Source: an uncultured virus (IMG/VR IMGVR_UViG_3300012347_000249)
Taxonomy: Duplodnaviria; Heunggongvirae; Uroviricota; Caudoviricetes
Reading direction: 5' to 3' (one strand)
Length of the DNA stretch: 64,000 nucleotides
Virus record (IMG/VR): IMGVR_UViG_3300012347_000249
Shown: one piece after another, positions 18,985 to 35,931 of the stretch
Position numbering within the stretch: position 1 is the stretch's first letter
How the letters are laid out: each line of letters opens with the position of its first letter
Program-made: the position numbers and the translations under genes
Notes under the pieces: generated by a model
The model's database searches: none
What the model saw: the letters and a program-made list of their open reading frames with translations, nothing else
Told to the model about the DNA's origin: nothing

Positions 18985-19192
18985 ACGAATTAAAGAACTT
19001 GCGGGCATGGCAAAGTTAATGGCCGAGGAAGATATTAACAAACAGATATCATACAACGCCGAACTCAAGGCATTTGCTAACAAGTTCGCTGAGTTGATTA
19101 TCAATAAATGCAAAGAAGCAGTGGCAAAAACTGACCCAACAACATCGCAACGTGCGATACAAGCAATCAATGAAGAATTAGGAATCAAATGA
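18977..19192 (+). CDS. Family-B (MNERI...) small protein
   Basis: MSERIKELA...KFAELIINKC...ELGIK. Confidence 0.75.
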   Translation: MSERIKELAGMAKLMAEEDINKQISYNAELKAFANKFAELIINKCKEAVAKTDPTTSQRAIQAINEELGIK

Positions 19193-20106
19193 AAGAATTA
19201 TGGACAGAGAAGTATCGCCCCAAGACAGTAGGCGATTATGTATTCACTGATGAGTCACAGCGTAAACAAATTGAAGCGTGGGTGCGTGATAAAACCATTC
19301 CGCACATTTTACTAAGTGGTAGTCCAGGTACTGGTAAGACAACATTGGCCAAGGTTCTAATCAATGAACTAGGCATTGACGACTATGATGTGCTACAGAT
19401 TAACGCAAGTCGTGACAACGGTGTAGACTTTATCAAAAGCAAAGTAGAAGGCTTTGTGCAAACAATGCCATTTGGTAAGTTCAAGGTTGTGCTAATGGAC
19501 GAGGCTGATTACTTGTCACACAACGCACAGGCTATCATGCGTGGTCTATTAGAAACATACGCAAGCCAAGCACGTTTTATCTTTACATGCAACAAGCCAC
19601 ACAAGATTATGGATGCGTTGCATTCACGTTGCCAAGGCTTCCATATCAACAAAACAGACAAGACTGAGTTTACTGCCCGTGTTGCCACAGTATTAGTAAC
19701 TGAAGGAGTTGACTTTGATCTTGATACCTTGGACTTGTATGTTACTGCAACCTATCCTGACTTGCGTAAGTGTTTGAACCTAACACAAGCAAACAGCAGT
19801 AGCGGTACACTAGACAAGCCCGGAGAAAATGATCGTTCAACTCGTGACTTTAGAATCTCAGCAGTTGAATTATTACGTGCAGGGCAAATCCGTGCAGCAC
19901 GTCAAGAAATTATCAACAATACAGACAACTATGACGAAATGTTTCGTTGGATGTACAATAACTTAGGCATGTGGTCCGATTCAGAAGCGGGCCAAGACGA
20001 AGCAATTTTAATTATTCGTAAGGGACTAGTTAACCATAGTATGGTAGCAGATCCTGAAATTAACCTAGCAGCAACATTAGTGGAGTTAACTCAAATTGAG
20101 CAATAA
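19189..20106 (+). CDS. Sliding-clamp loader AAA+ subunit (T4 gp44/RFC-like)
   Basis: LWTEKYRP, GSPGTGKTT, INAS, DEADYL, SRC motif. Confidence 0.95.
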   Translation: MKELWTEKYRPKTVGDYVFTDESQRKQIEAWVRDKTIPHILLSGSPGTGKTTLAKVLINELGIDDYDVLQINASRDNGVDFIKSKVEGFVQTMPFGKFKVVLMDEADYLSHNAQAIMRGLLETYASQARFIFTCNKPHKIMDALHSRCQGFHINKTDKTEFTARVATVLVTEGVDFDLDTLDLYVTATYPDLRKCLNLTQANSSSGTLDKPGENDRSTRDFRISAVELLRAGQIRAARQEIINNTDNYDEMFRWMYNNLGMWSDSEAGQDEAILIIRKGLVNHSMVADPEINLAATLVELTQIEQ

Positions 20107-20110
20107 ATGT

Positions 20111-20677
20111 CTACTTATTTTTATTTTTCCAATATTTTAATCTAGCTAGTGACATGCGTTGTTTTGTTAGCTCAGATTTTGGAAGTCCCTTTAATGGACT
20201 AGACCCACCTTTATTGTAAGGTACTCTACCCATACATGCAGCAGATAATGCGGCAGAATGTTCTTTAGTTCTAGCTTTACCAGTTAATGCATTGGAAATT
20301 TTGGCACGATGTTCTTCAGTCATTGTACGTTTAGGTTTTCCTTGCTTACCCTTCGGCACTCCTGCTAAACCAGTTTCTATTATTAAATTTGCCCACTCAT
20401 CTGATTCAACAATTAAATTTTCTATAGAGAACTGAGTGGCATAGTTATACACCTCTTCTCTGGTATTGAATAATTGGCACCAAACGGTAGTTACATTCTT
20501 ACCGTATTCCTGCAAATGCTTTGTCCAATTTTTACCTGATCCGTTATATTTTAATGGATCTCTGAAAGTCTTACCAAAATATTTTAGCCCAGTTACATTA
20601 TGTTTCTTAATGTATAACCAAGTAGGTCTAAAATTATCTTGTGTAATTTCCTTAATAGTAGTATTATAAATACTCAT
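20111..20677 (-). mobile_element. Free-standing GIY-YIG (Seg-like) homing endonuclease with NUMOD3 repeats
   Basis: WLYIKKHNVTGLKYFGKT...YNGSG..W..H; C-term TEEHRAKIS/TKEHSAALS/SELTKQRMS; inverted relative to neighbours, AT-rich. Confidence 0.85.
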
Positions 20678-21156: not shown

Positions 21157-21457
21157 ATCAGGTGATAGGGGTTGGTTTGTTGGTTCGTTTGAACGAGCTG
21201 TTTTTCAAACCAACGACCTTGAAGCGGGTTACCAAGTCAACCTTAAGGGTGAAACTAGTAAGCCGCATTTTCACAAAATTGCAACCGAAATCAATCTCAT
21301 TGTTAGAGGTGCAGTGTTAATCAACGGCGAGCTTTATACTGCGGGCATGGGAGTTATTTTTTACCCCAACGAAGTAGCAGAATGCGTGTATATAGAAGAT
21401 ACTGAAACTATGGTGATTAAGACTCCCGGAGCATTAAACGATAAATATCTAATATGA
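21131..21457 (+). CDS. Cupin-fold protein
   Basis: GWFVGSF...PHFHKIATEINLIVRG...IKTP. Confidence 0.75.
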   Translation: MPKQFQLSESGDRGWFVGSFERAVFQTNDLEAGYQVNLKGETSKPHFHKIATEINLIVRGAVLINGELYTAGMGVIFYPNEVAECVYIEDTETMVIKTPGALNDKYLI

Positions 21458-21705
21458 ATCCAGCAATGCTCAAAACAATGAAGGCGAAGAAAAAGCGCCC
21501 TGTAGATCCGAATGCTCCACCGCGTCCGAATCTAATGAGCCACGACAAGGTTATCCGTGACCAAAAAACCCAACTTGGAACCATGGAACAACGCTTGCAA
21601 TACTTAGAACACCGTTTGCAGGAAACTGAATCTAAACTGCGTTATCAAACACAGTACTTGACTCAGTTACATCAAAACCTGCAGAACTACGTTCGCAAAA
21701 AATAA
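21454..21705 (+). CDS. Basic coiled-coil protein
   Basis: KAKKKR..DPNAPPRP, then heptad repeats; TAAATA at 21442. Confidence 0.75.
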   Translation: MNPAMLKTMKAKKKRPVDPNAPPRPNLMSHDKVIRDQKTQLGTMEQRLQYLEHRLQETESKLRYQTQYLTQLHQNLQNYVRKK

Positions 21706-21710
21706 TGTAA

Positions 21711-22110
21711 CATAAGGTTGGCAGGCCGGTTAATATTCTGCTGGGTAAGCATCTGATGTGTGTGCCGATGCCCAATTCTGTTCTTACAAACGGACTTCAA
21801 TTCTCTACCCTTGTGATGCAAGGATGCCTTAAAACGATACCCCTCTGCGGTAATAACGTTTGAATTGTCGGATACAGGTTGAGTGTAGCGCAAGCTAACT
21901 TAGATCCATTACGTCCATTGCACAACTGACACCGAGGTGCATTAAAAATCGTAGTAGGTAGGGTAAGGTACAGAGCCCAGAGACGTGGAATCCAAAACAC
22001 CTACTGTCAGTGAACGAGAGCAACTCGGATGAAGCCTTTTTGACATCCATTTATTGGGTGTCAATTCCACTCCACAATCTGGATGAAACTATCACTTTAA
22101 GTGTGTTAAA
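21711..22110 (+). ncRNA. Candidate large structured non-coding RNA
   Basis: The only long intergenic gap; many nested stems with G-U pairs and a GCAA tetraloop on +. Confidence 0.55.
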
Positions 22111-22165
22111 AAACAGCTTCAAGCGATAGCGAAGAAGCAAGTGTACGCAGTACACTTTTATCATT

Positions 22166-22193
22166 TTGACATTTAATCCAAATGCTGTATAAT
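22166..22193 (+). promoter_or_regulatory. Consensus sigma70 early promoter
   Basis: TTGACA-16-TATAAT, followed by an AAAGGA RBS. Confidence 0.75.
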
Positions 22194-22216
22194 ATGAACA
22201 TTAAAGGATTAGCTCA

Positions 22217-22873
22217 ATGTCAATGTTAAACACAGAACAAGTTTTTGAAGCTGCTGTAGCTGCATTCAGAATCAATGGCAATAAAGTTCTGACTAAATCT
22301 TCAGGCAATATGATTGCCAATAAAGTACTAATCGAATCTGAGTTAGCAAATCCGAATATTGTTACAGATCAAGATCGAGCAGCAGCAAAAGAGCTCATTG
22401 AGTTTTTCACTTATCACAGAACAATGTCTAGTCTTGTTGGTAAAGATTCAAATGAATTCACACAACTGATTACCACAATCATTGGAGTGGATAGAGTACC
22501 TAAGCGTCTCATTGGGTTACTGCAATGGGCACCTCGCCTAGGATCTGATATTCATCATGCACAGGAAGTACGTAATCAATTGGCTGTACTTAGTTATGGC
22601 AGCAAATTTCTAGGTCGTCCCGGGGATAAAGTTGAAATTGATTACGTGGTAATACATAAACGTTATAACAAACCCTATCAAGCATGGCGCTACATTGGGC
22701 ACGATACCCATGGCAACATTGTGGGCTTTTTCAACAAACTAGAAATCACTAAACCTGCATTCAGGATCAAAGGGCGTATCAAACAAACCGAAACTAGTCG
22801 CTTTGCAGAGAATGGAAAAACCACGTATCTATCACATGTTAAGGAAGTACATGACAGCTCAAGTAACTTGTAA
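22217..22873 (+). CDS. Hypothetical protein, possible C-terminal OB fold
   Basis: SKFLGRPGDKVEI...IKGRIK...TTYLSHVK. Confidence 0.75.
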   Translation: MSMLNTEQVFEAAVAAFRINGNKVLTKSSGNMIANKVLIESELANPNIVTDQDRAAAKELIEFFTYHRTMSSLVGKDSNEFTQLITTIIGVDRVPKRLIGLLQWAPRLGSDIHHAQEVRNQLAVLSYGSKFLGRPGDKVEIDYVVIHKRYNKPYQAWRYIGHDTHGNIVGFFNKLEITKPAFRIKGRIKQTETSRFAENGKTTYLSHVKEVHDSSSNL

Positions 22874-29746: not shown

Positions 29747-29946
29747 GCGAATCCGAGAATACGTTCCGTGCCCTTAAAGGTCAAGAACTTCTTGTGACTA
29801 GATTTGGTTGCAGAATTGGGTGGCATGTGTGGGAAAAATACAAAGACCCGCAAAGAATGATAGAAGGTGGTTATAATATAACTTACCAAACTCGTGTTTG
29901 CGGGTACTGCAATCTGCAGGATCTTAAGGTGCTAAGAAAGGAATAA
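29743..29946 (+). CDS. Small Zn-binding protein
   Basis: CRIGWHVW...RVCGYC. Confidence 0.65.
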   Translation: MSESENTFRALKGQELLVTRFGCRIGWHVWEKYKDPQRMIEGGYNITYQTRVCGYCNLQDLKVLRKE

Positions 29947-29948
29947 TA

Positions 29949-29987
29949 GTGGAACGAATAAAAGAACATTTCGGAGTTGAGGAATGA
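29949..29987 (+). pseudogene. Collapsed Family-B remnant (VERIKEHFGVEE*)
   Basis: Family N-term fused directly to family C-term. Confidence 0.65.
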
Positions 29988-30130
29988 CTACACTAATGAA
30001 ACAAATTGCCGACGCACAGAAACAAGTTAAACTAATGGCAAAACAGTTTGGTCGTGCCAGTCAACAATACAAAGATGCAGTCAAATATCAAGCCGATCTT
30101 GTACTCAAACAAATGCAAGGTGCAAGATGA
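29984..30130 (+). CDS. 48-aa hypothetical protein (not in ORF track)
   Basis: MTTLMKQIADAQKQ...QGAR*; ATGA-coupled at both ends. Confidence 0.6.
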   Translation: MTTLMKQIADAQKQVKLMAKQFGRASQQYKDAVKYQADLVLKQMQGAR

Positions 30131-30387
30131 ACGAACGAATTAAACAACTTAAACACGAAGCATATCAGTTTGCAAACTCAAACTGTGGTGACGAATTTGG
30201 CGGCGTTGATGAAATGAAGCGCCGCCTGAAGTTTGAAGAAAAGTTCGCCGAGTTGATTGTTCGGGAATGTTTAGATATTGCTAAAAATTGGGAGGACGAA
30301 CTAGAAAATGCCAACATGCTCAGCGAATCAAATGCAGCTGGCATCGTGGCATATCGAATTGCACGACAATTTGAAGTTGAAGAATGA
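30127..30387 (+). CDS. Family-B small protein
   Basis: MNERIKQL...KFAELIVREC...QFEVEE. Confidence 0.8.
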   Translation: MNERIKQLKHEAYQFANSNCGDEFGGVDEMKRRLKFEEKFAELIVRECLDIAKNWEDELENANMLSESNAAGIVAYRIARQFEVEE

Positions 30388-30563
30388 ACTGGGAAGCAAC
30401 TGAAATCTTGCTACAATTAGTCAAGGATCAGTTTATTGTAGAACACAATAAATCCAAGGAAAATCAAAGCGAAGCAAGATTGAGAGAACTACGACAGGCC
30501 GCTGTTGGCTTGCATGAACAACGAATTTTCTTGAATGTAAAACGATTGAAGGAAACAAAATGA
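30384..30563 (+). CDS. 59-aa hypothetical protein (not in ORF track)
   Basis: MNWEATEILLQLVKDQF...KETK*; ATGA-coupled at both ends. Confidence 0.6.
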   Translation: MNWEATEILLQLVKDQFIVEHNKSKENQSEARLRELRQAAVGLHEQRIFLNVKRLKETK

Positions 30564-31593: not shown

Positions 31594-31596
31594 ACC

Positions 31597-31791
31597 ATGA
31601 TCGAAATGCGTTGGTATTTGCCAGTTAGTGGCGACAAAGTTTTACAGTATCGTCAAAAGATTGATGTTACTGTTCGAGCAGCAACTGCTGGCATGTGGGA
31701 CTCAAAGTCCATTGCAGAAACTGCTAACATGCAATGGAGCCCTTGGAAAGAAGTCCCATTAGAGTCAGAACGCAATCCAGATTTTCCTTAA
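31597..31791 (+). CDS. Hypothetical protein
   Basis: EMRW...VLQYR...WSPWKEVP; GGAG RBS. Confidence 0.7.
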   Translation: MIEMRWYLPVSGDKVLQYRQKIDVTVRAATAGMWDSKSIAETANMQWSPWKEVPLESERNPDFP

Positions 31792-31863
31792 TACTTTAGT
31801 GTACTTGTGGGTAATTGAGTTTGAGCATATAATAGATATATCAAAACTCTGATAAATATCTGT

Positions 31864-32064
31864 ATGAAAATTAACGAAATTACCCAAGTTAACTTGCAAG
31901 CTCTTAAAGAGAGTTTAGAGCAATCTAATAACACTGGTGTCTCTACAGATAATTTAATGGCCATTGCTGAACAACATGTCAAAGGTACATGGAGTAAAGC
32001 AATGACTCTTGAAGAATCTTTAGCGGAGGATCAACGAATATTAGCCGAGGCAATGGCCAAATGA
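31864..32064 (+). CDS. Small late protein with MKINEI head-targeting-like N-terminus (antitoxin position)
   Basis: TAAATA at 31853; MKINEIT...LKES; ATGA-coupled to a toxin-like gene. Confidence 0.7.
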   Translation: MKINEITQVNLQALKESLEQSNNTGVSTDNLMAIAEQHVKGTWSKAMTLEESLAEDQRILAEAMAK

Positions 32065-35193: not shown

Positions 35194-35399
35194 ACGAACG
35201 AATTACGGAACTTATGCGTGAAGCTGGTATGAGTTTCTCCTCCCAGACTGAACGAATTGTCTCCCGAGAAGAAGCATTAAAGTTCGCTGAGTTGATTGTG
35301 AAAGAATGTGCCTCATTATTTGATCCAGACTTACAGGATGAGCACGAAGAATGGGTAATTCGTAAAAGTATCCTAAATCATTTCGGAGTTGAAGAATGA
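35190..35399 (+). CDS. Family-B small protein
   Basis: MNERITEL...KFAELIVKEC...HFGVEE. Confidence 0.8.
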   Translation: MNERITELMREAGMSFSSQTERIVSREEALKFAELIVKECASLFDPDLQDEHEEWVIRKSILNHFGVEE

Positions 35400-35662
35400 G
35401 CAAAGGTAGCGAACTTTTTGATGCAGTGACAAAACTGGACCATCCTTTGGCTCGTAAATTGAAAGAACTACACGCAGAGGCTTTTGCGTTGCCAACCACC
35501 GATGATGCTGAAAAGTTTTTAACAGAGTGGAAAAAGAACAATCCTGAAGAAGCACGAGCCATGCACGAGTTTATCTTTGGGGATTTAATGGATGAACGAG
35601 AAAGTCGCCGTGAAGTTAAATCAGAGTTAGGCTACAGTCGCATCGGAAGGAACAATGTATGA
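35396..35662 (+). CDS. Hypothetical protein
   Basis: Coupled ORF. Confidence 0.65.
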   Translation: MSKGSELFDAVTKLDHPLARKLKELHAEAFALPTTDDAEKFLTEWKKNNPEEARAMHEFIFGDLMDERESRREVKSELGYSRIGRNNV

Positions 35663-35931
35663 ACGAACGAACTAAAGATGTGAATCCACATGTCTACTCA
35701 GCTTGGCAACAAGCGGCAGCAACAGTTAGCCCGTTGAAAACAGGCGGCGAGTGGCAAAAAGATTTTGTGATTAAGTTTGCTGAGTTGATTGCTCTGGACT
35801 GTATGAAACTTTGCACAGAGGTTAAAGAAGACTTATTTACTATCCAAGATAATGATAAGCGTGATCTAGCAGAAATGGCTGCTACGTTTTGCTACGAAGC
35901 AATCAAGAGTGAATTTGGGGTTGAAGAATGA
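35659..35931 (+). CDS. Family-B small protein
   Basis: MNERTK...KFAELIALDC...EFGVEE. Confidence 0.8.
   Translation: MNERTKDVNPHVYSAWQQAAATVSPLKTGGEWQKDFVIKFAELIALDCMKLCTEVKEDLFTIQDNDKRDLAEMAATFCYEAIKSEFGVEE

What the first reader, a model, noticed from the sequence alone, without database searches (positions are those of the whole stretch)
21711..22110. ~400-nt highly structured non-coding region, candidate novel large phage ncRNA
Seen: this is the only long gap in a tightly packed genome, with many nested stems on +. Stems: GGCAGG/TCTGCT (21720/21737); GCATC/GATGC (21749/21767); CAATTC/GAATTG (21798/21862) enclosing CCTTG/CAAGG; TGAGT..TAGC-GCAA-GCTA..ACTTA (21880-21902, GNRA loop); ACTGACA/TGTCAGT (21925/22005); TAGTAGGT/ACCTACTG (21952/21999); CGAG/CTCG (22015/22024); TTGACATCCA/TGGGTGTCAA (22040/22055). 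GGATGAA is repeated at 22027 and 22081. Several stems need G-U pairs, which favours a + strand RNA. I see no tRNA, tmRNA, RNase P or intron signature. Inference: a large ornate ncRNA (GOLLD/ROOL-like in scale), a ribozyme, or a replication-primer RNA.
Basis: partly seen in the sequence, partly recalled or inferred. Interest (0 to 1): 0.72.

Follow-up and report, generated by a model that had tools for sequence, protein, structure and literature searches.

The report
New ornate RNA gene in phages
The gap holds a real, intricately folded RNA gene of about 390-460 bases that matches no catalogued RNA family, is shared by well over a hundred uncultured freshwater and marine phage contigs, and ends in two look-alike arms that always carry the same six-letter box.

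Summary
Window 21705-22092 (+) is the conserved body of a structured RNA gene; a tail hairpin and terminator take it to about 22159.

- **Conservation:** against its nearest relatives the body is 93-94% identical, while the ORF just upstream is 64-65% identical.
- **Distribution:** motif scans found 24 IMG/VR and 108 metagenome matches, giving 89 distinct full-length copies.
- **Structure:** on 76 dereplicated copies, 64 proposed pairs in 15 helices, three of them pseudoknots, are 94.3% paired against 36-44% for slid controls. 49 of 64 pairs change on both sides. G-U pairs fix the + strand.
- **Weak point:** single-sequence folding energy is not better than shuffles (z -0.8).
- **No known family:** nothing in Rfam 15, ARAGORN or 50,697 cultured phage records matches.
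- **Odd feature:** The boxes sit on two homologous 3' arms, and one core loop can pair with either arm.

Function is unknown. I favour a stable trans-acting RNA with a toggling twin-arm read-out. The neighbourhood (tmRNA, tRNA) hints at translation or RNA processing.

The parts
21705..22092 (+). Conserved body of the RNA, about 388 nt, from the 5' pseudoknot strand to just past box R2
   Evidence: 93-94% identical to L001/L003 while the upstream ORF is 64-65% identical. Alignable in 89 distinct copies. 94.3% of 4761 pair cells are paired.
21705..21710 (+). PKa 5' strand. It pairs with the loop (21785-21788) of hairpin 21777-82:21789-94. It overlaps the stop codon of the upstream ORF.
   Evidence: 5 pairs, all with changes on both sides, 83.9% paired (helix 1).
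21716..21741 (+). 5' H-type pseudoknot. S1 is GG(U) 21716-18 with (G)CC 21726-28. S2 is GCAG 21721-24 with CTGC 21738-41.
   Evidence: S2: 98.3% paired, 3 of 4 pairs with double changes. S1 was seen by eye only (GGU/GCC against GGCG/CGCC, GGUG/CACC and AGCG/CGCU). MAFFT misaligns it, so it was not counted.
21743..21773 (+). Helix GGG/CCC (21743-45:21771-73) enclosing a variable hairpin, GCAT 21749-52 with GTGC 21762-65
   Evidence: 99.1% paired (helix 3). Inner stem 82.4% paired, covariation score 0.569.
21798..21867 (+). Central domain. A 7-bp helix (21798-804:21861-67) encloses hairpin CCTTG/CAAGG (21809-23) and a second hairpin.
   Evidence: 7 of 7 pairs with double changes, 95.9% paired (helix 5). 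Hairpin 94.8% paired.
21826..21879 (+). PKb pseudoknot: GCC 21826-28 with GGT 21877-79, crossing the central helix
   Evidence: 100% paired. One pair switches C-G (62) to U-A (14) (helix 7).
21880..21902 (+). Optional hairpin capped by a GNRA loop (GCAA here; GCGA, GTGA, GTAA and GAGA elsewhere)
   Evidence: Absent in about 31 of 76 copies.
21905..22004 (+). 3' core pseudoknot. He (21905-15:21982-89) crosses Hf (21954-59:21999-22004). Hairpin Hd (21919-24:21937-41) lies inside.
   Evidence: Helices 9, 10, 11 and 13 are 94.6-98.9% paired; 17 of 20 pairs have double changes.
21927..21933 (+). Loop of Hd, TGACACC: the docking loop
   Evidence: Pairs with M2 (22057-63) over 7 bp, 99.4% paired. Pairs with M1 (22005-09) over 5 bp, 90% paired.
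21961..21982 (+). Invariant, mostly unpaired block GGGTAAGGTACAGAGCCCAGAG
   Evidence: Nearly invariant in the 23 distinct sequences that were found with a different motif, so it is not only a selection effect.
22005..22033 (+). Arm M1: TGTCA, a linker of about 12 nt with a small hairpin, CAACTC, then box R1 (GGATGA 22027-32)
22041..22063 (+). Hairpin Ha (TGACATCC/GGGTGTCA). Its 3' strand is the M2 docking strand.
   Evidence: 8 pairs, 97-99% paired, many G-U (helices 14-15).
22059..22087 (+). Arm M2: TGTCA, linker, CAATCT, then box R2 (GGATGA 22081-86). Homologous to M1.
   Evidence: The hexamer is identical to R1 in 75 of 76 copies, with 8 hexamer types. The spacing between boxes is 50-65 nt.
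22116..22138 (+). Tail hairpin with loop AAGCGATAGCGAA (tandem G-A plus a GNRA-like cap)
   Evidence: The same hairpin type (loops GAGCGATAGCGAA, GAGTGCAACGAA and others) recurs 20-60 nt after R2 in most lineages listed. Seen by eye, not counted.
22139..22159 (+). Terminator-like hairpin plus T run: the likely 3' end of the RNA
   Evidence: The hairpin is conserved in L001/L003, and an equivalent second hairpin is present in other lineages.
22166..22193 (+). Boundary, not part of the RNA: a perfect TTGACA-16-TATAAT promoter for the next gene (22217-22873)
   Evidence: 12 of 12 consensus matches. Similarity to relatives ends here.

Best explanation
**Shown**
- This is a single-copy gene for a stable, highly structured non-coding RNA read from the + strand. 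The conserved body is about 390 nt; with tail hairpin and terminator it is about 460 nt.
- It founds an RNA family found so far only in uncultured, mostly large, freshwater and marine phages.
- It folds into three domains tied by pseudoknots: PKa and S1/S2 at the 5' end, PKb in the middle, and He crossing Hf at the 3' core. Long invariant unpaired stretches lie between the helices.
- Its 3' end is a partial tandem duplication. Two homologous arms, M1 and M2, each consist of a UGUC(A) strand, a linker, CAAYYY and then a hexamer box. The two boxes are kept identical while the hexamer itself differs between lineages.

**Inferred**
- One core hairpin loop (UGACACC) can pair either with M1 or, after hairpin Ha opens, with M2. 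The freed Ha 5' strand can then pair with M1.
- The RNA is therefore a near-isoenergetic two-state device that puts box R1 or box R2 into the same place on the core.
- No internal complement to the boxes exists. I therefore take them to be specificity elements read by an outside partner, an RNA or a protein.

**Favoured function (weak)**
- A trans-acting adaptor or decoy that engages a host or phage component of translation or RNA processing. The recurrent position just downstream of phage two-piece tmRNA and near tRNA genes suggests this.
- Catalysis is not excluded.
For: - **Conservation above coding level:** body 93-94% against 64-65% for the upstream ORF.
- **Family size:** 24 IMG/VR and 108 metagenome motif matches, giving 89 distinct full-length copies. 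One copy in each of 5 of 5 large contigs.
- **Structure:** 64 pairs, 94.3% paired against 36-44% when slid and 77.9% when shuffled. 49 pairs have double-sided changes. Covariation score 0.510 against 0.194; 0 of 500 shuffles reach it.
- **Strand:** frequent G-U, for example 32, 22, 19 and 18 of 76 in hairpin Ha.
- **Gene-like flanks:** 32 of 67 distinct upstream regions carry a TGTATA(A/C)T-type -10 within 95 nt. A terminator follows. Flanking protein genes are not conserved; the largest cluster covers 23 of 112 loci.
- **Twin boxes:** hexamer identical in 75 of 76 copies with 8 types, so at least 7 concerted changes. MI analysis shows same=1.00 for four column pairs.
- **Alternative docking:** loop to M2, 7 bp, 99.4% paired, 3 pairs with double changes. 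Loop to M1, 5 bp, 90%. M1 to Ha 5' strand, 5 bp, 80.5%. Ha itself 97-99%.
- **tmRNA context:** Rfam permuted or beta-type tmRNA in 8 of 12 loci tested, always upstream on the same strand, and within about 70 nt in 5 of them.
- **Presence in RNA libraries:** contigs from four metatranscriptome runs of four studies cover parts of it. These are contigs only, so transcription is not proven.
Against: - No experiment exists, and no read-level evidence for the ends.
- The two-state model rests on pairing potential. The four strands descend from a duplication, so part of their mutual complementarity is inherited. The shuffle and slide controls for the short helices are only moderately clean: 28-34 of 500 shuffles reach the count of double-changed pairs.
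- No partner for the boxes was found. No complement exists inside the RNA (best candidate column 71% paired). There is no consistent complement in the adjacent tmRNA. The window's hexamer is not enriched in the 64-kb window (9 found, 7.2 expected).
- tmRNA adjacency was seen in a minority of loci: 7 of 100 scanned with ARAGORN, many of them too short to show it. It is absent from the window itself.
- In the window's lineage the RNA starts at the stop codon of an ORF with no promoter of its own, so there it must be co-transcribed and perhaps processed.
- The MFE z-score is unremarkable.
Confidence: 0.5

Rival explanations
1. Self-processing ribozyme. The pseudoknotted core docks M1 and then M2 and cuts, or cuts and rejoins, at the same position of each box. 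This releases the 50-65-nt piece with hairpin Ha, linear or circular, or trims the RNA's 3' end.
For: Long invariant unpaired stretches in a multi-pseudoknot core. Two equivalent 'substrate' arms with identical boxes and alternative docking to one loop. One RNA-library contig of a relative runs through the upstream ORFs and the core and stops 4 nt after 22008, followed by adapter sequence, between M1's UGUCA and R1 (record 8).
Against: An RNA-library contig spans R1 to R2 uncut (record 3: 21985-22091), and no joint was reported inside the element. The contig end is not at a box. A single contig end is weak evidence. No known ribozyme family matches.
Confidence: 0.2
2. Template RNA with terminal redundancy. 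A polymerase copies the segment between the boxes and jumps from one box to the other, as in telomerase RNA templates or the template jumping of DRT2-type reverse transcriptases. The comparison is recalled from memory and comes from no call.
For: Perfectly co-varying direct repeats bound a 50-65-nt segment. A large structured scaffold lies upstream.
Against: No reverse transcriptase (PF00078) in 0 of 5 large contigs, one of them estimated 100% and one 92% complete. No conserved neighbouring protein. The segment holds a strongly conserved hairpin whose 3' strand also pairs with the core.
Confidence: 0.05
3. Cis-acting element rather than a gene of its own: a 3' UTR or leader that regulates neighbours, a replication origin or primer RNA, or a DNA-level site with direct repeats for a DNA-binding protein.
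For: In the window it lies among replication genes (clamp loader at 19189-20106) and directly follows an ORF. Box spacings cluster at 50-55 and 59-65 nt, near 5 and 6 DNA turns.
Against: Neighbours differ among lineages: cyclase, desaturase, peroxiredoxin, amidoligase, tmRNA. A terminator and a separate promoter isolate it from the downstream gene. G-U covariation is strand-specific and therefore at RNA level. Half of the loci have a promoter-like site just upstream.
Confidence: 0.08
4. A very divergent or permuted member of a known large RNA class: group I intron, RNase P RNA, tmRNA, or GOLLD/ROOL.
For: The He/Hf pseudoknot with a CAGAGAC-like stretch is loosely reminiscent of the P3/P7 region of group I introns (recalled, not tested). 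The host phages carry permuted tmRNAs, so permutation does occur in them.
Against: No Rfam family reaches even E<=10 on the element or its gathering score in the window or in 12 related loci. ARAGORN finds nothing on it. There are no flanking exons: flanks vary and it has its own promoter and terminator.
Confidence: 0.05
5. Protein-coding after all: small ORFs, or translational bypassing between matched take-off and landing sites as in T4 gene 60 (recalled).
For: Spurious-looking ORFs of about 70 aa overlap the element in 53 (+) and 68 (-) of 112 loci. In the window an ORF at 22010-22129 reads both boxes in frame. The 50-65-nt spacing resembles the 50-nt gap of gene 60.
Against: The box spacing takes all residues mod 3: 51, 16 and 18 of 85. 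One- and two-base indels are scattered through the body. Runs of 20 or more invariant bases show no third-position relaxation. Compensatory pair changes explain the variation.
Confidence: 0.01

Closest known systems
GOLLD (RF01998) and ROOL (RF03087), large orphan structured RNAs often carried by phages and prophages
   Same: Large, ornate, phage-borne, many covarying helices and pseudoknots, often near tRNA genes, function unknown.
   Different: No covariance-model match. Shorter: about 390-460 nt against my recalled sizes of roughly 580 and 800. It has the twin co-varying boxes. Whether it multimerises like those RNAs is untested. For the cryo-EM paper 10.1101/2024.12.08.627333 I saw only the search listing and the start of the abstract.
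Group I intron catalytic core
   Same: A pseudoknot in which one helix's 3' strand follows another helix's 5' strand (He/Hf against P3/P7). GNRA-capped peripheral hairpin. Found in T4-like phages beside homing endonuclease genes.
   Different: No Rfam hit even at E<=10. 22 invariant bases separate the two strands that abut in group I introns (architecture recalled). There are no exons; it is a free-standing gene.
Transcription attenuators and riboswitch expression platforms (1:2/3:4 against 2:3 pairing)
   Same: Four mutually compatible strands allow two exclusive pairing schemes.
   Different: Here the strands belong to a duplicated arm at the 3' end of a large RNA. They do not sit ahead of a regulated gene, and a terminator and a new promoter follow.
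Template RNAs with terminal redundancy (telomerase RNA, DRT2 ncRNA)
   Same: A segment bounded by short identical direct repeats that must stay identical, attached to a structured scaffold.
   Different: No reverse transcriptase nearby or anywhere in 5 large contigs. The comparison is recalled, not tested.
Phage two-piece tmRNA loci of aquatic myophages (Melnitz-like phages)
   Same: Same kind of phages and the same RNA-gene neighbourhood. In Melnitz a structured RNA, a glutamine riboswitch, sits at the 3' side of the phage ssrA gene (PMC9004378; I read the abstract and the passages found).
   Different: The element here is not a glnA motif (no Rfam hit) and is five to six times larger.
Earlier scan note e1-5926527: pseudoknotted 350-450-nt RNA of Erwinia, Dickeya and Yersinia jumbo phages beside replication genes
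   Same: Same size class, jumbo phages, pseudoknotted, beside replication genes as in this window.
   Different: Another genome. No sequence similarity to any cultured phage record was found for our element, so it is at most a distant analogue.

Membership tests
Any Rfam 15 family (including GOLLD RF01998, ROOL RF03087, Intron_gpI, RNase P, tmRNA families) | Covariance-model match at the family's gathering score | tested here: not met
   0 matches in the whole window. At E<=10 there are only two chance-level hits, both outside the body (PsrR1 at 22180-22247 on the minus strand, S15 leader at 22339-84). In 12 related loci only tmRNA and tRNA genes match, never the element.
Group I intron | Interrupts a gene; flanking exons join to one reading frame or RNA | tested here: not met
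   Flanking ORFs are unrelated between lineages. Promoter-like site upstream in 32 of 67 loci. A terminator follows.
Group I intron | P3-P7 pseudoknot with adjoining strands and a guanosine-binding site in P7 | tested here: inconclusive
   A crossing pair of helices exists (He and Hf), but 22 invariant bases separate the strands. No G-site could be assigned. The features are recalled.
tmRNA | tRNA-like domain (acceptor stem, T arm, CCA) plus a tag reading frame | tested here: not met
   ARAGORN finds no tmRNA on the element in the window or in 100 loci, while it finds genuine permuted tmRNAs next to it. Reading from the boxes gives no conserved frame.
RT-templating ncRNAs (retron, DRT2-like) | A reverse transcriptase gene adjacent to the ncRNA | tested here: not met
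   No conserved neighbour. PF00078 absent from 5 of 5 large contigs, with controls positive in 3 of 14 reference genomes.
RT-templating ncRNAs (retron, DRT2-like) | Template bounded by identical short repeats | tested here: met
   R1 equals R2 in 75 of 76 copies.
Type III antitoxin RNA (ToxI-like) | Tandem full-length repeats followed by an endoribonuclease toxin gene | tested here: not met
   Only about 35 nt is duplicated, behind a unique core of about 300 nt. No conserved downstream gene.
Orphan large structured phage ncRNAs (a descriptive kind, not a homologous family) | More than 300 nt, many covarying helices, non-coding, phage-borne, autonomous gene | tested here: met
   Only 2 hits in 185,579 species genomes, both on small MAG contigs.

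The most novel reading that the evidence does not exclude
A new class of large natural ribozyme or RNA-only machine. A multi-pseudoknot core handles two identical cis 'substrate' boxes in turn by swapping which of two homologous arms is docked. For example, it might excise and perhaps circularise a 50-65-nt hairpin RNA. This would be a two-step, twin-site mechanism not described for any known RNA class.
Probability: 0.15. Interest if true: 0.92.

Novelty: categorically new. Interest (0 to 1): 0.82.

Why it matters
- **Few such RNAs remain unexplained.** Large, highly conserved, pseudoknotted RNAs of unknown function are rare, and the solved ones (ribosome, RNase P, introns, tmRNA, guide-RNA scaffolds) each opened a field. 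This family is abundant enough for solid comparative modelling: 89 distinct copies.
- **It is confined to uncultured aquatic phages**, some of which probably infect Betaproteobacteria, as their beta-type two-piece tmRNAs suggest.
- **It has an unusual signature.** It carries direct-repeat covariation: two boxes kept identical through at least seven changes, on arms that can dock alternately to one loop. I found this feature in no description. That gives clear, cheap experiments: in vitro transcription, probing, box swaps and cryo-EM.
- **It may reveal a new way for phages to interfere with host translation or RNA processing.**
- **Limit of the novelty claim.** It rests on Rfam 15, 50,697 phage records and four full-text searches. 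A description in a subscription journal or in supplements that I could not see would lower it.

Tried and rejected
- **Folding energy as a test.** z -0.82 on + and -0.79 on -; uninformative.
- **Relatives through the downstream 218-aa protein.** None in IMG/VR.
- **Own genome.** Not held.
- **Cultured phages.** No blastn match with 601 nt or with the 86-nt core at E<=1. The only cultured homologs of the upstream 117-aa protein are Synechococcus phages; in phage Bellamy the genes abut with no gap.
- **Closing helix AGGUUG/CAAUCU proposed by RNAalifold.** Rejected, because U-to-C changes at column 19 are not compensated (UA 59, CA 12), and those bases form pseudoknot S1 instead.
- **Internal partner for the boxes.** The best column is only 71% complementary.
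- **Complementarity of the boxes to the neighbouring tmRNA.** Only 5-7-nt chance-level matches, with one 9-mer in L046.
- **Genome-wide enrichment of GGATGAA.** None.
- **Reverse transcriptase.** None.
- **Conserved protein partner.** None; neighbours are a CHASE2-cyclase, a fatty-acid desaturase, DUF4337, an amidoligase and AhpC.
- **RNA-library contigs.** No joints within the element. Stretches without cover, and the small shares of the runs I did not lay, say nothing. Contigs cannot show ends, strand or level.
- **Earlier scan notes.** Nothing by sequence or by place; one analogous note by words.
- **Literature.** Searches gave no description of this RNA. The three papers that hold the 12-mer are human-gene primer hits.
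- **Row left out.** L121 was dropped from the pair counts because its first ~130 columns did not align.

Full report
**What is at the site.**
- The stretch between the stop codon of an 83-aa ORF (21454-21705, +) and the next gene (22217-22873, +) has no ORF of note.
- Its 3' boundary is sharp. A hairpin plus T run lies at 22139-22159, then a perfect TTGACA-16-TATAAT promoter at 22166-22193.
- Rfam 15 finds nothing in the 64-kb window at gathering scores. At E<=10 it finds only two chance-level hits outside the body.
- ARAGORN finds no tRNA or tmRNA in the window.
- Single-sequence folding is unremarkable. The MFE is -131.2 kcal/mol against -126.0 +/- 6.4 for shuffles, z -0.82; the minus strand gives z -0.79.

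**Homologs.**
- The window's genome is not held, and no cultured phage record matches.
- The upstream 117-aa protein led to nine IMG/VR loci. In three of them, contigs of 240-354 kb, the similarity runs on through the gap and stops at the terminator.
- There the body 21706-22092 is 93-94% identical, while the ORF just before it is 64-65% and the tail is 72%.
- Motif scans then gave 7 and 24 IMG/VR matches and 108 metagenome matches, 80 of them listed.
- After extraction there were 89 distinct full-length copies and 24 partial ones. Dereplication at 97% left 77. L121 was then left out because its 5' part does not align, leaving 76.
- The core 19-mer occurs in only 2 of the contigs of 185,579 species genomes, both short MAG contigs. 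This is therefore a phage RNA, not a cellular one.
- Each of five large contigs holds one copy.

**Structure.**
- Mutual information, RNAalifold and inspection give 15 helices.
- On alignment A3 (76 sequences) the 64 pairs are 94.3% paired. With the partner slid by 1-3 columns the figure is 36-44%, and in column shuffles it is 77.9%.
- 49 of 64 pairs change on both sides. The covariation score is 0.510 against 0.194, and 0 of 500 shuffles reach it.
- Three long-range pairings cross other helices: PKa (5' tail with a hairpin loop), PKb (C-G 62 / U-A 14) and Hf across He. A fourth, S1, I saw only by eye because MAFFT misplaces it.
- G-U pairs are frequent, which rules out the minus strand.
GCATC/GATGC is not (49% paired) and is replaced by GCAT/GTGC (82%). 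CGAG/CTCG is not general (50%).
- Long unpaired stretches are invariant. An example is GGGTAAGGTACAGAGCCCAGAG at 21961-82, which is also invariant in sequences fished with a different motif.

**The twin arms.**
- The 3' end is a partial duplication. Arm M1 (22005-22033) and arm M2 (22059-22087) share the plan UGUC(A), linker, CAAYYY, hexamer.
- The hexamer differs between lineages: AGCAAA 23, AACAAA 17, AGCGAA 16, AGATGA 10, GGATGA 6, AGCGAG 2, AGTGGA 1, AACGAA 1. It is the same in both arms in 75 of 76 sequences; the exception is L087. MI shows identity 1.00 for four column pairs.
- The spacing varies from 50 to 65 nt and takes all residues modulo 3. A reading frame or ribosomal bypass is therefore excluded.
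- No complement to the box exists inside the RNA.
- The loop of hairpin Hd (TGACACC, 21927-33) can pair with M1 (5 bp, 90% of cells). It can also pair with the 3' strand of hairpin Ha in M2 (7 bp, 99.4%, three pairs with compensatory changes).
- Ha itself is a well-supported 8-bp hairpin. Its 5' strand could pair with M1 (80.5%).
- Two pairing schemes of similar size, 13 and 12 bp, thus exist. Each places one box behind the helix made with the core loop.
- This is inference from pairing potential. Because the arms are duplicates, part of it is inherited.

**Gene organisation and context.**
- In 32 of 67 distinct upstream regions a TGTATA(A/C)T-type -10 lies within 95 nt. By eye, some of these have a CCAAnnTTGG palindrome and some have a leader with UAGGC repeats.
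- Downstream of R2 most lineages have an A/U-rich linker, a hairpin with a GAGCGATAGCGAA-type loop and a second hairpin (by eye). In the window these lie at 22116-38 and 22139-59.
- Flanking protein genes are not conserved. The largest real cluster covers 23 of 112 loci. Examples are a CHASE2-cyclase, a desaturase, DUF4337, an amidoligase and AhpC.
- A recurrent neighbour is a permuted (beta-type) tmRNA gene upstream on the same strand. ARAGORN finds it in 7 of 100 loci scanned and Rfam in 8 of 12 loci tested.
- In five loci the gap is about 70 nt or less. In L072 and L046 the element begins right after the tmRNA terminator.
- tRNA clusters lie nearby in L074 and L111.
- Two-piece tmRNAs are known to be typical of aquatic phages, and in Melnitz-like phages a riboswitch follows the ssrA gene (PMC9004378, passages read).
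- No reverse transcriptase is present in five large contigs.

**Expression.**
- Of 24 runs listed, 20 hold part of the stretch, 6 of them RNA libraries.
- I laid four RNA runs from four studies. Their contigs cover parts of the element and of the upstream ORFs.
- One contig spans R1-R2 uninterrupted. One 1166-nt contig of a relative ends 4 nt after 22008, next to adapter sequence. No joints were reported inside the element.
- These are contigs from RNA libraries. They do not prove transcription, ends or strand.

**Interpretation.**
- Shown: a real, autonomous, single-copy, + strand structured RNA gene of a family absent from Rfam 15, from cultured phages and from the papers I could search.
- Inferred: a pseudoknotted core with a bistable twin-arm 3' end that presents two copies of a lineage-specific hexamer to an outside partner.
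- I favour a trans-acting adaptor or decoy connected with translation or RNA processing (confidence about 0.5 for the whole statement, much less for the function).
- A self-processing ribozyme acting at both boxes is the main rival (0.2).
- Template RNA, cis-element or primer, divergent known class and coding are minor rivals.
I could not test any relation, and our element has no sequence match in cultured phages.

Noticed in passing
window 20111-20677 (-): A 188-aa ORF matching a homing-endonuclease PHROG (phrog_314, E 6e-12) sits on the opposite strand between the clamp-loader gene (19189-20106) and the 133-aa ORF. In relative L001 these two genes abut, so this looks like a free-standing homing endonuclease insertion.
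   Followed up: partly
L072:1851-2253, L046:2757-3174, L073:1788-2187, L084:2295-2769, L110:1186-1660, L069:3881-4302, L115:691-1150, L074:4743-5020: Genuine permuted (two-piece, beta-proteobacterial type) tmRNA genes with plausible tags (for example ...FALAA...YALAA) in phage contigs that carry the element. This hints at betaproteobacterial hosts.
   Followed up: partly
L045, L060, L070, L030, L084, L120 and others, 10-60 nt upstream of the element (shown): A leader with 3-4 copies of UAGGC(A/U) at about 10-nt spacing lies between a TGTATA(A/C)T promoter-like site and the RNA. 15 of 67 upstream regions have at least two AGGCN. Many of these promoters carry a GACCAAnnTTGG palindrome just upstream.
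   Followed up: no
window 35379-35671 and 30238-30390: Two short islands are far more conserved than their surroundings against relative G002. One is 98% identical over 293 nt to a non-syntenic place. The other is 96% identical over 153 nt, with a second 81% copy. Both overlap small ORFs (35396-35662, 30127-30387). They may be mobile or repeated small genes.
   Followed up: no
window 29747-30126 and 31594-31978: Two further stretches of about 380 nt have no ORF of 70 aa or more on either strand, so the studied gap is not the only one. There is no Rfam hit in them.
   Followed up: no
L019:2901-2975, L104:4795-4870; L049:190-277: ARAGORN calls tRNAs with anticodon CTA (amber-reading, labelled tRNA-Pyl) in two loci, and a tRNA with a four-base anticodon (ttga) in a third. 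These are possible suppressor or recoding tRNAs in these phages.
   Followed up: no
window 22166-22193: A perfect sigma-70 consensus promoter (TTGACA, 16 nt, TATAAT, with TG two bases upstream of the -10) starts the next transcription unit. The downstream 218-aa protein has no PHROG match and no relative in IMG/VR by peptide patterns.
   Followed up: partly
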